Of a DNA stretch of 47,442 nucleotides, positions 6,001-9,000 are shown one piece after another. A program made the position numbers. The DNA lies in IMG/VR virus record IMGVR_UViG_2913112809_000004, positions 1 through 47,442 of that record; one strand, written 5' to 3'. This DNA is from a virus. Its lineage: Duplodnaviria > Heunggongvirae > Uroviricota > Caudoviricetes. Position 1 is the stretch's first letter. Every line of letters starts with the position of its first letter.

Positions 6001-9000
6001 GACCGGGCATTCCTGCGCTAAGGTTCGTGCACTTTACAGGCTGGTCTTTTGGTACTGAGGTAATGACCTGCGTCACAGTCCCTTCCGGTACAGCCCATGA
6101 TCCTGACGTTGTAGCCACACAGTAGACTGGCTCAGTCTGCCCGCTTTCTGGTACCACCGTATCGCGGGAAACTGCATACTGGTAGTTACCGTCACCAACC
6201 ACAAACCCTTTAGGGATGCCAAACCCCGGCAACGCCTCAAACACCACGTATACCGCCGTATTTGTACTTAATCCCTTCTGTGCTCCATAAATGTTTCCGA
6301 GTTGCATCAGTAACGGAATATTCGCGCCGTATGGGCTTACGGAGTTAATAAGATCAATACGCGCCTGGTCTATTAATGCCAGCGCCCCGACTGCCGTGCT
6401 GGCAAGGTCTGTAATAAGTCCCGCCGGAAGGTTGGCTGTATATCCAGGTACTTTTTCAGCAACTCTGGTGATAAGATTTGCGAGTAAATCATTGGGTGGC
6501 GTAGGCTGCGCACCCGCACTGGTCATAGTAATTGGTATTTCTGACATAATTAATCTCAAGAGGATTTTATGAAATTTAACTCATTAGGGATTTTGATTAG
6601 CTCACTGCTATTTTCTGGTGTTTCTCATGCAATTGATGCCACAGAGAGAATGAATGACATTCAACAGTTCGGTAAATGGTATTATGCTGAGTTTACCATG
6701 CCTACCACTATGGCTTATCGTATTGGTGTTGAATCCAAATTGCCGCAGGATAAATCAACTTTATTTATTGATATATCACCGTTAACTCAATGTGAGCCCG
6801 GTGATGTTACTGTCAATCATTTTATTGGATATAAACAAATGGATTTACCACCGTTCCTTCCTGTAAGCTATAAAATCAGTGGACAACAAAAGCAGGACTC
6901 TATAACAACCCCATCTATCAATGAAGGTTACTTGTTCAGTCCTATTAGCTCATTAAAGATTAGTGATTTGTTAAAAGCTAAAGGGAAAGGTAGTTTTTCT
7001 TTTTGGTACACTCCGCCAGCTGAAAGCAAAGAAAAACCACAAAAAATATTCTTCCCATTAGATGGCCTCCCGGAGGCATATAAGGCTGCAATAAATTCCT
7101 GTAAAGAAAACATGTAAAATCAGGCGGTAATTATTTATGATGCACGCCTTTCTCGAAGTAGGTAAACGCTTTGCTACTTGGATCACCGAGCGAATCAGCG
7201 AGTATGAATTCGTAGAAAATCAGGACTTTTTGATTATTTTCCAAAATCGGGAAAAAATAGATAGAAGCAGACCAGCTAAAGACTACCACCTCACCCTGGA
7301 CACCGCCAAAGAACTGGCAATGGTCGAGAGCAACGAAAAAGGCCGCCAGATCCGCCGATACTTCATCGAGTGCGAGAAGAAGCTGCGCGAAGAAACCACC
7401 AGCACACAATCCCCTCTGAATGTTGACATCATCATGCGCGTCAGAAACGGTTCTGTTACCCAGATTGAGCACCACAAATCAGGCTCAGTTATCACAATAG
7501 AATTGGCAATTCACTTACTACGCAAAAGTGGATGGATTGCCATGCCTTGCGATGAACTTCTTGACACCCCCTGGCACAACTGATGCCCGAGAACTTGCCT
7601 CAAACCGGAACCTGCGTCCGGTAACTGGTTCCGTTAAAAAACACAACATCAACGTTATAGGTGGGGTTCTCTGCCCCATCTACCTTTGAAATTGCCAGCG
7701 ATGCAAAATACCCGGCAAACTGTTGCTGAACCATGTTCACGTAGTAGTCCGGGTAAATCTGCTGCACGATGCACTGCTGCGCTGGAATACCGTAATTCGC
7801 GTAAAACGGCGACTCCCCCAACCCCAGCTTTAACGTCTGAATGAGCGTCGTCAGCCAGCCGTAGGAGAAATCACCGCTGGCGTCAGATTCTACTGCAACC
7901 CATTTTTTGTTGCCGTTCGCGTCGGTGACGCGGCCCCATGTTCTCATCGTGCCCTCACCACCATCGGATCTGGCCAACAAAATAACCAGACGCCAGAATC
8001 AGAAAGACCAACCAAATAAGCAAAAACTTCCAGGTGGATAATTTTTCAGCCATAACTCGAATCTCCCGAATCAGTTTGCTAAAATCAAACACGACTTCTC
8101 CTTGCCTTATTCAAGGTCAGAAACAAAAAGCCCCGACTGCTGCAACAGTTCGGGGCTTTCGCTTTATGGATAGAATTTAAAGTGAAATAAACCGGTATTA
8201 ACCCGGATTTGGTTGCTTCGACGTGATCGTGCTGCCGCCGCTTTGAACGCCAGTCACATCGTGGCTGTGGCCGCTGGCGCTCACGCCGTTGATAACTGCA
8301 TCTTTCTCGACCTTGAGAGGGCCAATCAGCGAAGCGGTTGTATCCTTCATTTGTTCTTTGTCCTGGACGATTGGACCGTTGAGATGAATTTTCCCGTTCA
8401 TGAAGATATCTTCGGCCTCGAGGTAAACAGCTTTCGACTTTAGCCTAATTTCTTCCGGTGCCACCGTTACCGAGCTACTGCCGTCCTCTGTTTTGAGGAT
8501 CGCGCCATCTGGACCGTACAAAACGATTTTTTGCGGATCTTCGTCGGACCAGTCCTTGTTTGCCAGTGGCACGAAAAACAGTGGAGTGAGCGACATCGAG
8601 TAAGAGAGCGTCGCCATACCGGTTCCCAACCCGGACACACCGCGCAGGGATACATCAGCGGCAATTGTTACTCCTCGATCGCCCGGCTGTATCGGGTAAC
8701 GGATATACGGGAATGTGGCGACAGGGATTGTTATCTGCGGAAAGTTGATCCCCTCCGGCAGCATATCAAACTGAACTGTCACTATCTGCCCGCTGACACC
8801 GACAACATGGCAGGGCAATTCACGACCTTTAAGCTCGGCTTGCTGGTTACCAGAACTGGTCATCATCTCCGACAGCGTTCGGAGAAACGGTAATTTTTGA
8901 GCGTTTGACATTACACCCTCGCCCAGTTCTCAGCATATGCCTCGAATACCGTCACCCAGGCATCGCCATCGGCTGTCAGATACGAACCAATATGTCTGAC

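What the first reader, a model, noticed from the sequence alone, without database searches (positions are those of the whole stretch)
6569..8157. Opposite-strand moron pair inside the baseplate cluster, bounded by a terminator
A secreted hypothetical protein and an antirepressor-like protein are encoded on the plus strand between baseplate genes that all run on the minus strand; each has its own RBS and the segment is AT-rich. A minus-strand terminator (8121..8157) and a 32-aa hydrophobic ORF (7957..8053) sit just upstream. Such cargo can be expressed from the prophage during lysogeny.
Basis: partly seen in the sequence, partly recalled or inferred. Interest (0 to 1): 0.5.

Follow-up and report, generated by a model that had tools for sequence, protein, structure and literature searches.

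The report
Accessory-gene slot inside phage baseplate cluster
Two opposite-strand genes inside a prophage's tail-baseplate operon fill a swappable cargo slot: one encodes an uncharacterised exported protein with an IalB-like fold, the other is a cut-down antirepressor gene. This is an ordinary kind of phage "moron", but a well-delimited one.

Summary
ORFs 6569-7117 (+, 182 aa) and 7137-7583 (+, 148 aa) lie between minus-strand baseplate genes of a Rac-SA53-type temperate E. coli myophage.

They fill a slot bounded exactly by the baseplate-J start codon and the stop codon of a 115-aa gene. Prophages with 99%-identical flanks carry at least five unrelated cassettes there. These include other signal-peptide proteins, an HSDR_N nuclease, a ProQ/FinO protein and a YafO toxin module.

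The 182-aa protein:
- has a signal peptide and two invariant cysteines;
- is under purifying selection (dN/dS 0.07-0.09);
- has 36% GC against 49% for J;
- has diverged in step with the tail module (about 50% identity in Buttiauxella and Salmonella relatives);

Distant relatives sit in unrelated mobile elements, so it is not a baseplate part.

The "antirepressor" is a truncated AntA gene. An 813-bp deletion fused it to a lost neighbour's start codon, and a 1-nt frameshift cuts its 3' end.

The terminator is real. It belongs to a separate "hairpin plus 45-aa membrane ORF" module, which also lies between R and Rz in Stx phages.

I found no above-chance promoter, and expression in lysogens is untested. 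The finding is a new member of a known kind, of modest interest.

The parts
5321..6547 (-). Baseplate J-like wedge gene (408 aa). It forms the left wall of the cargo slot. Sequence homology among variants breaks exactly at its start codon (CAT at 6545-6547 on the plus strand).
   Evidence: Pfam Baseplate_J 1.8e-07 and phrog_6. Boundary alignment. 99% protein identity in loci carrying other cargo.
6548..6568 (.). 21-bp divergent spacer that belongs to the cassette. It carries the RBS of the 182-aa gene (AAGAGGA, 6558-6564) and, on the other strand, whatever RBS J uses. The best promoter-like motif is an extended -10, TGACATAAT (6542-6550), overlapping the J start codon. That motif is no better than chance.
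   Evidence: Sequence. Boundary comparison. Promoter scoring: 0 sites in the consensus scan, and the PWM score of 6.9 is equalled by about 370 sites in the window.
6569..7117 (+). Gene for a 182-aa exported protein. Signal peptide is residues 1-21 (…VSHA|IDAT). The mature domain is a beta-sandwich with a C-terminal helix and has an IalB-like fold. W37, C75 and C178 are invariant. GC is 36%.
7137..7583 (+). Truncated AntA-family gene (148 aa). It lacks about 24 N-terminal and 14 C-terminal residues of the 186-aa full-length homologues.
   Evidence: Pfam AntA 1.9e-23, model positions 6-68 of 68. Protein alignment. DNA alignment. PGAP flags a differently truncated copy (deleted further into the AntA domain) in strain hubt-sl as 'incomplete; missing N-terminus'.
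7137..7142 (+). Deletion junction. The start codon and RBS are those of a lost secreted-protein gene (rac61 of Rac-SA53), fused to about codon 26 of ant. The window lacks 813 bp relative to Rac-SA53.
   Evidence: Three-way DNA alignment. Rac-SA53 annotation.
7567..7571 (+). C5 run where the window is 1 nt shorter than all relatives. This shifts the frame to …TPWHN* in place of …TPLAQLIPENLPQTGTCVR*. It could be a homopolymer sequencing error.
   Evidence: A second homopolymer frameshift in the hub gene raises the same doubt.
7600..7947 (-). 115-aa conserved baseplate-cluster gene, in the position of gpW/gp25 between the V-like and J-like genes. It forms the right wall of the slot. Full-length ant genes overlap its 3' end by 25 nt.
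   Evidence: phrog_7986 5.5e-63. 78-98% identity across all relatives. Boundary alignment. The W/gp25 identity is inferred from position only, with no Pfam or PDB hit.
7955..8092 (-). 45-aa single-transmembrane ORF (GTG start, AAGGAG RBS). It is part of a second cargo slot, between the V-like gene and the 115-aa gene.
   Evidence: phrog_6632 2.1e-28, full length. 84% DNA identity to the R-Rz intergenic ORF of H-19B and CP-1639. Other variants carry 1-4 such ORFs.
8121..8157 (-). Intrinsic terminator hairpin with a U-run on the minus strand. On the plus strand it gives a weaker, possibly bidirectional stop. It heads the small-ORF module.
   Evidence: Folds: -30.3 kcal/mol, z -3.7 (minus strand) and -26.0, z -3.0 (plus strand). 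The stem is kept through compensatory changes in four other cassettes and in Stx phages.
8198..8911 (-). V-like baseplate spike/hub gene, upstream in the late operon.
   Evidence: Weak TIGR01644 phage_P2_V match (1.7e-4, below the cutoff). Annotated as 'baseplate protein / bppV' in relatives.

Best explanation
The segment is the current content of a hypervariable accessory-gene slot in the baseplate operon of a Rac-SA53-type temperate myophage. The slot is bounded to the nucleotide by the J start codon and the stop codon of the 115-aa gene.

The J-proximal gene encodes a Sec-exported periplasmic beta-sandwich protein with an IalB-like fold, probably stabilised by a disulfide. It is maintained by selection and has travelled with this tail module for a long time. 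Because it is antisense to the late operon, it must be transcribed separately. I infer that it acts on the cell envelope of the lysogen. The most likely roles are a superinfection-exclusion or lysogenic-conversion factor, working in the periplasm where incoming tails act.

The second gene is a remnant of an AntA-family gene. An 813-bp deletion also removed a second secreted-protein gene. Its function is probably impaired.

The terminator and the 45-aa ORF belong to a neighbouring, independent module.

Shown: the anatomy, the slot boundaries, cassette diversity, the export signal, the fold, selection, and the truncations. Inferred: periplasmic location, transcription in lysogeny, and the exclusion or envelope role.
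For: Slot and cassette diversity:
-. About 128 E. coli genomes carry the module at 90% identity or more. Slot lengths run from 595 to 1865 bp in the nine loci aligned at both boundaries; L024 holds about 3.1 kb.
- Flanking proteins are 98-99% identical (J, I) and 94-99% identical (115-aa 'W', V) while the cargo differs.

Export:
- The N-terminal hydrophobic core and the A-x-A|VDA motif are conserved, as are W37, C75 and C178, in 39 sequences.
- In the AF2 model the folded domain starts at residue 28.

Fold:

Selection and long linkage:
- dN/dS is 0.07-0.09.
- The protein is 49-52% identical in Buttiauxella and Salmonella relatives, against 56-61% for J, I and V, and sits at the same position and strand.

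Cassette content:
- Four of the five J-proximal cargo proteins in alternative cassettes have signal peptides.

Ant truncation.

Terminator module.
Against: - No promoter stands out above chance, and there is no dedicated terminator after ant. Independent expression is therefore assumed from the gene orientation only.
- There is no sequence or fold similarity to any known exclusion protein, and no PADLOC hit.
- The molecular function of IalB itself is unknown, so the fold match does not give an activity.
- Divergence in step with the tail module shows only linkage, not functional coupling.
- Phages with the same tail do without this gene.
- The ant gene has dN/dS 0.14, so it may still be functional. 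Its 3' frameshift could be a sequencing error.
Confidence: 0.55

Rival explanations
1. The 182-aa protein is a host-interaction (virulence or colonisation) factor delivered by lysogenic conversion, working like Bartonella IalB in adhesion or invasion rather than in phage-phage conflict.
For: IalB is the only strong structural match. Carriers are mostly animal and food E. coli, including STEC and ETEC strains. Morons often encode such factors (PMC3594210).
Against: No Pfam IalB match in any of 39 members. IalB's role is mechanistically undefined, and IalB-domain proteins also act in envelope growth in free-living rhizobia. Distant relatives occur in environmental bacteria such as Crenothrix and in lake metagenomes, which argues against a host-specific virulence role.
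Confidence: 0.15
2. The two genes form one promoter-to-terminator moron. It expresses a secreted protein and an active antirepressor from the repressed prophage, and the antirepressor can induce resident prophages.
For: Both ORFs are intact with RBSs. The AntA domain is almost complete (Pfam positions 6-68 of 68). Ant has dN/dS 0.14. The hairpin at 8121-8157 also folds on the plus strand (-26 kcal/mol) and could end a plus-strand transcript.
Against: Ant lacks the N-terminal 24 and C-terminal 14 residues of the full-length homologues and arose by a deletion fusion. A copy truncated further into the AntA domain is annotated as a pseudogene. An active antirepressor expressed constitutively in a lysogen would be self-defeating. 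The two genes have different histories. There is no promoter signal. The terminator is 540 bp away, beyond another gene, and belongs to a separately mobile module.
Confidence: 0.12
3. The 182-aa protein serves the phage's own lytic cycle. It would be a periplasmic factor that masks the receptor or cell debris, or protects progeny, like T5 Llp. It would be made early or late in infection rather than in lysogeny.
For: It sits in a fixed position and orientation next to tail genes and has diverged in step with them. It is exported. From my own knowledge, T5 llp lies next to, and opposite to, the receptor-binding protein gene.
Against: Phages with 99%-identical baseplate genes replace it with unrelated genes, though their tail-fibre genes were not compared. 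It has no lipobox and no similarity to Llp or Cor. The relevant receptor-binding proteins (fibres) lie several genes away.
Confidence: 0.15
4. The ORFs are non-functional filler, and the region matters only as an antisense or spacer element that modulates late-operon read-through into J.
For: No promoter was detected. Each cassette supplies J's RBS, and some cassettes place a terminator right before J. The slot content therefore does affect J expression.
Against: The 182-aa ORF keeps its length of 182-183 aa in the 12 full-length close clusters, down to 49% identity (two 175-aa entries lack the N-terminus). It has invariant residues, dN/dS below 0.1, and gives a confident fold.
Confidence: 0.05

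Closest known systems
Phage morons in tail operons (for example HK97 gene 15, as defined by Juhala/Hendrix and reviewed in 'The moron comes of age', PMC3594210)
   Same: Extra genes sit between conserved tail genes. GC deviates (36% against 49%). Presence and identity vary among otherwise near-identical phages. The products act on the cell envelope (HK97 gp15 is a membrane exclusion protein, and my own knowledge).
   Different: No recognisable promoter or terminator of its own. The slot is never seen empty: it exchanges whole cassettes at fixed boundaries. The 182-aa gene is an old co-diverging resident rather than a recent addition. The orientation is antisense to the operon.
Bartonella IalB / COG5342 IalB-domain proteins (PDB 3DTD; RgsG of Sinorhizobium)
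   Different: Only 12-15% identity, and no Pfam or PDB sequence-profile match. This family is carried by phages and mobile islands of Gammaproteobacteria, not by chromosomal alphaproteobacterial loci. IalB's biochemical function is unknown.
AntA/AntB antirepressor family (PF08346)
   Same: Clear domain match (E 1.9e-23). 89% identical to full-length 186-aa prophage Ant proteins over the shared part.
   Different: Truncated at both ends by a deletion fusion and a frameshift. It lies in the tail operon rather than an immunity or early region. Activity is untested.
Prophage accessory/defence hotspots (for example the P2/P4 hotspots; from my own knowledge)
   Same: Fixed insertion points between core genes hold alternative cassettes that include nuclease-type and toxin-antitoxin genes.
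   Different: No cassette protein matched PADLOC. Most cassettes encode exported proteins rather than recognised defence systems. The location is inside the baseplate gene cluster.
R-Rz intergenic module of H-19B and Stx-converting phages
   Same: The hairpin, the AAGGAG RBS and the GTG-started 45-aa transmembrane ORF are collinear and 84% identical.
   Different: Here the module sits between baseplate genes instead of lysis genes. Its function is unknown in both places.

Membership tests
Moron (Hendrix/Juhala sense) | Extra DNA between genes that are neighbours in related phages; variable presence | tested here: met
   The 182-aa gene is absent or replaced in L003, L004 and L005, whose J proteins are 99% identical. 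Ant is absent in L008 and L005. No relative with an empty slot was found.
Moron (Hendrix/Juhala sense) | Base composition differs from the flanking genes | tested here: met
   GC is 0.364 for the 182-aa gene against 0.491 (J) and 0.520 (the 115-aa gene). Not met for ant, at 0.470.
Moron (Hendrix/Juhala sense) | Own promoter | tested here: inconclusive
   The consensus scan found 0 sites in 5500-9500. The best PWM candidates (8.05 and 6.9) are matched by 174-367 sites in the window. Only 21 bp separate the gene from J, so any promoter must overlap J coding sequence.
Moron (Hendrix/Juhala sense) | Own terminator | tested here: inconclusive
   There is no hairpin between 7583 and 7600. The first plus-strand hairpin is at 8121-8157 (-26 kcal/mol, interrupted U-tract), and it belongs to another module.
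Moron (Hendrix/Juhala sense) | Expressed from the repressed prophage | not testable with these tools
   Needs RNA-seq or TSS data from a lysogen.
AntA/AntB antirepressor (PF08346) | AntA domain above the Pfam gathering score | tested here: met
   83.2 bits against a cutoff of 27, E 1.9e-23.
AntA/AntB antirepressor (PF08346) | Full-length architecture of the closest functional-looking homologues (about 186 aa) | tested here: not met
   Missing the N-terminal 24 residues and the C-terminal 14 residues. It is a deletion fusion with a frameshift.
AntA/AntB antirepressor (PF08346) | Binds and inactivates a phage repressor | not testable with these tools
   Experimental property.
IalB family (PF06776 / COG5342) | Sequence-profile match | tested here: not met
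   No IalB Pfam hit at E up to 1 in any of 39 members. A profile search of PDB sequences found nothing at E up to 10.
IalB family (PF06776 / COG5342) | IalB fold | tested here: met
IalB family (PF06776 / COG5342) | Exported envelope protein | tested here: met
   A signal-peptide-like N-terminus is conserved across the family. This is a sequence-based inference with no dedicated predictor.
Structural baseplate component | Co-oriented late gene, cytoplasmic, conserved in all phages with this tail | tested here: not met
   Opposite strand, signal peptide, replaced by unrelated genes beside 99%-identical J, and distant homologues located in integrase and toxin-antitoxin contexts.
Known anti-phage defence / exclusion proteins | Match to a known defence family or to the fold of Sp, Llp or Cor | tested here: not met

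The most novel reading that the evidence does not exclude
The 182-aa IalB-fold protein is a periplasmic, tail-module-specific superinfection-exclusion factor. It would block the envelope-penetration step (SLT tape-measure, hub or baseplate) of phages with this tail type. The J|W slot in general would be a dedicated site where this phage lineage swaps periplasmic counter-infection proteins, which would assign a first molecular role to the IalB fold.
Probability: 0.15. Interest if true: 0.6.

Novelty: new member of a known kind. Interest (0 to 1): 0.35.

Why it matters
This is a clean, nucleotide-precise example of a cargo slot inside a phage baseplate operon, with a catalogue of alternative cassettes. 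Most of the cassettes encode exported proteins. The work also defines a small, previously unannotated family of mobile-element-borne periplasmic proteins with an IalB-like fold.

If the family proves to act in phage exclusion or envelope remodelling, it would give a handle on the unknown biochemical role of IalB-type proteins. It would also show that temperate phages place envelope-acting genes next to tail genes. As it stands, the finding is a well-documented but ordinary moron-type feature.

Tried and rejected
1. Idea: Ant and the 45-aa ORF form one mobile unit, as I recalled for Stx lysis cassettes. Rejected. The Ant-like matches in O104:H4 lie in an early region with no small ORF nearby, and only about 110 bp of ant is shared.
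2. Idea: the unrelated 179-aa (hubt-sl) and 154-aa (rac61) secreted cargo proteins are distant members of the 182-aa family. Rejected by hhalign (probability 0.2% and 1.4%).
3. Sequence-level family assignment of the 182-aa protein (Pfam, NCBIfam, PADLOC, PDB phmmer and profile searches) gave nothing.
4. Promoter search by consensus and by my own PWM gave nothing above chance.
5. Rfam search of the region found only sub-threshold hairpin matches on the terminator.
6. The genome-contig scan with the close family found nothing. With the distant subgroup it found one Crenothrix MAG.
7. The afdb50 fold library was unavailable.
8. PDB sequence searches to confirm the gp25/W identity of the 115-aa gene and the J protein found nothing. 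The 'W' label rests on position only.
9. dN/dS did not show neutral decay of ant (0.14), so 'pseudogene' cannot be asserted from substitution patterns.
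Full report
**What the window is.** Over its structural half (about 4.0-25 kb), the window is 96% identical to 'Actinobacillus phage vB_Apl-pPE4' and to Escherichia phage Rac-SA53. These are temperate phages with a Rac-type early region (RecET, Kil, a DicA-like repressor, integrase) and a contractile-tail late region.

In window coordinates the late operon runs on the minus strand. Its order is tape-measure/SLT, 222 aa, 88 aa, hub, V-like (8198-8911), a 115-aa gene (7600-7947), J (5321-6547), a 208-aa gene, then fibres.

**Checking the observation.**
- The two plus-strand ORFs are at the stated coordinates.
- The first gene is AT-rich (GC 0.364, against 0.470 for the window and 0.491 for J). 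The second is not (0.470).
- Both have Shine-Dalgarno-like motifs.
- The hairpin at 8121-8157 is a good minus-strand intrinsic terminator: -30.3 kcal/mol, z -3.7, followed by UUUUUGUUU. On the plus strand it also folds, at -26 kcal/mol, but with an interrupted U-tract.
- The 115-aa gene separates the terminator and small ORF from the gene pair.

**The site is a cargo slot.** I compared E. coli prophages whose J, I and V proteins are 94-99% identical to the window's and whose 115-aa ('W') proteins are 95-98% identical. Homology breaks exactly at the J start codon. Where ant is absent, it also breaks exactly at the stop codon of the 115-aa gene.

Between these walls lie 595-1865 bp of unrelated content in the nine loci aligned at both boundaries:
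- the 182-aa gene plus a short ant (the window, pPE4, TUM1881);
- the 182-aa gene, a second secreted-protein gene (rac61) and a full ant (Rac-SA53);
- the 182-aa gene alone (Buttiauxella);
- the 182-aa gene with no annotated ant, in a 965-bp slot that still carries the ant 3' end (p727A3-47K);
- the 182-aa gene plus a Bro-N protein (Salmonella);
- a 248-aa 'LprI-family' secreted protein plus ant;
- a 179-aa secreted protein plus an ant pseudogene (E. coli W and relatives);
- a 386-aa HSDR_N endonuclease (phrog_4225) on the late strand.

A further variant, L024, holds about 3.1 kb: the 182-aa gene, a ProQ/FinO protein, an unknown gene, a full ant and a YafO toxin pair.

About 128 of 5426 complete E. 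coli genomes carry the module at 90% identity or more. Eighteen of them have the window-type cassette. Each cassette also supplies the sequence immediately upstream of J, including J's RBS. Two cassettes place a hairpin terminator there.

**The 182-aa protein.**

*Sequence family.* It has no Pfam, NCBIfam, PADLOC or PDB sequence match. It belongs only to phrog_31333.
- A 5.8-billion-protein search found 13 clusters, all Enterobacteriaceae. Twelve are 182-183 aa and one 175-aa entry lacks the N-terminus. They are 50-98% identical to the window's protein.
- An exhaustive HMM search found 51 cluster representatives of about 180-190 aa.
- Across 39 aligned members, the N-terminal hydrophobic segment with the A-x-A|VDA motif is conserved, as are W37, C75 and C178. 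This fits Sec export and a periplasmic disulfide, which is an inference.

The molecular function of IalB-domain proteins is unknown. They are inner-membrane or periplasmic proteins implicated in erythrocyte invasion (Bartonella) and polar growth (Sinorhizobium RgsG).

*Selection and linkage.* The gene is under purifying selection, with dN/dS 0.07-0.09 against pPE4 and Rac-SA53, though the counts are small. In Buttiauxella and Salmonella relatives it sits at the same place and strand next to J. There it is 49-52% identical, while J, I and V are 56-61% identical. It has therefore been linked to this tail module since those lineages split, while keeping 34-36% GC.

*Not a baseplate part.* Distant family members lie in quite different mobile contexts:
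- among RelE, HTH and YafQ toxin-antitoxin genes;
- next to P4-type integrases with AAA_25 or DUF5906 replication genes;
- next to a Sel1-repeat protein in a Crenothrix MAG.

**The 'antirepressor'.** The 148-aa ORF carries an AntA domain (E 1.9e-23) but is cut down. Full-length homologues in the same slot are 185-189 aa.
- Relative to Rac-SA53, the window and pPE4 lack 813 bp. The deleted stretch runs from just after the start codon of rac61 to about codon 25 of ant. The present ORF therefore uses rac61's RBS and ATG.
- The window is also 1 nt shorter in a C5 run (7567-7571). This replaces the last 14 residues with …TPWHN* and removes the normal 25-nt overlap with the 115-aa gene.
- PGAP flags a differently truncated copy, deleted further into the AntA domain, as 'incomplete'.
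- dN/dS is 0.14, with dN 2-6 times that of the neighbouring genes. Decay is therefore not proven.
- The hub gene is split by an A7-versus-A6 run. The 3' frameshift in ant may likewise be a homopolymer error.

**Expression signals.** Only 21 bp separate the 182-aa gene from J, so any promoter must overlap J coding sequence. The consensus scan found none. My PWM found nothing better than an extended -10-like TGACATAAT at 6542-6550, and about 370 sites in the window score at least as well. No hairpin follows ant. Independent transcription is thus inferred only from the antisense orientation and from selection on the ORF.

**The terminator and small ORF.** All E. coli variants have a hairpin terminator directly after the V-like gene. 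Its stem is preserved through compensatory changes. One to four small single-transmembrane ORFs of 45-71 aa follow it.

The window's version (hairpin, AAGGAG, GTG-started 45-aa ORF) is collinear with, and 84% identical to, the segment between the endolysin R and the spanin Rz of H-19B, CP-1639 and other Stx phages. That segment is present in about 1000 E. coli genomes. In Buttiauxella the V-like and 115-aa genes abut with no such module.

The terminator therefore belongs to a second, independent slot. It may attenuate late transcription into the wedge and fibre genes. It may also, secondarily, stop plus-strand transcripts. Both roles are inferences.

**Verdict.**
This is accessory cargo in a precisely bounded, cassette-exchanging slot, but it is not a simple promoter-gene-terminator pair. 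The Ant is a truncated remnant, and the terminator belongs elsewhere.
- The most likely role of the 182-aa protein is an envelope-acting lysogen function such as superinfection exclusion. I put this specific role at about 0.3 and periplasmic location at about 0.8. The 0.55 given as overall confidence applies to the composite statement: the anatomy (slot, export signal, fold, truncations) is close to certain, and the functional part pulls the figure down.
- The feature is a new member of a known kind. The IalB-like fold assignment and the slot catalogue are its most useful products.

Noticed in passing
window 7948-8197; L003:5259-6096, L004:4548-5243, L005:5947-6228, L014:6230-6682: There is a second variable slot between the V-like gene and the 115-aa gene. 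It holds a conserved terminator hairpin (with compensatory stem changes) followed by 1-4 small single-TM ORFs, some of them tandem paralogues ending …IRWW or …IRWR. The same hairpin + RBS + 45-aa ORF module lies between R and Rz in H-19B and Stx phages, and in about 1000 of 5426 E. coli genomes. Its function is unknown.
   Followed up: partly
window 8911-9919 (about 9335-9341): The baseplate hub gene is a single 1008-bp ORF in relatives. Here an A7 run (A6 in pPE4) splits it into 202-aa and 136-aa ORFs. This is either a defective prophage or a homopolymer sequencing error. The ant 3' frameshift also lies in a homopolymer.
   Followed up: partly
window 34455-34632 and 31713-31863: There is a hok/sok-type antitoxin RNA (Rfam sok, 97 bits) and two tRNA genes elsewhere in the phage.
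   Followed up: no
L001/L016 (PP818812.1): 'Actinobacillus phage vB_Apl-pPE4' is about 96% identical to E. coli prophage structural modules and carries Rac-type E. coli early genes. The stated host looks doubtful.
   Followed up: no
L014 (CP100067.1, p727A3-47K): A 47.7-kb circular record typed as a non-mobilizable E. coli plasmid is this same phage type, with the 182-aa gene at 92% identity. It could be an excised or replicating prophage, or a phage-plasmid.
   Followed up: no
window 6548-6568; L003:3249-3290; L005:4249-4288: Cassette boundaries abut the J start codon, so every cassette provides J's ribosome-binding region. Cassettes on the late strand end in a bidirectional hairpin terminator directly upstream of J, which implies read-through or antitermination to express J and the fibres.
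   Followed up: partly
L009:9999-11380, L010:6881-8262; L008:820-2182: Salmonella relatives carry a further insertion (Hok/Gef toxin plus two ORFs) between the hub gene and the 88-aa gene. The Buttiauxella relative carries T6SS Hcp plus a Tlde1-domain effector beyond the tail-fibre genes. The tail cluster therefore has several cargo sites.
   Followed up: no
L005:4289-5449 and about 8 other E. coli genomes: A common alternative cassette encodes a 386-aa HSDR_N-domain endonuclease (phrog_4225), which PGAP calls 'type I restriction endonuclease'. It has no PADLOC match and is a candidate stand-alone defence nuclease.
   Followed up: partly
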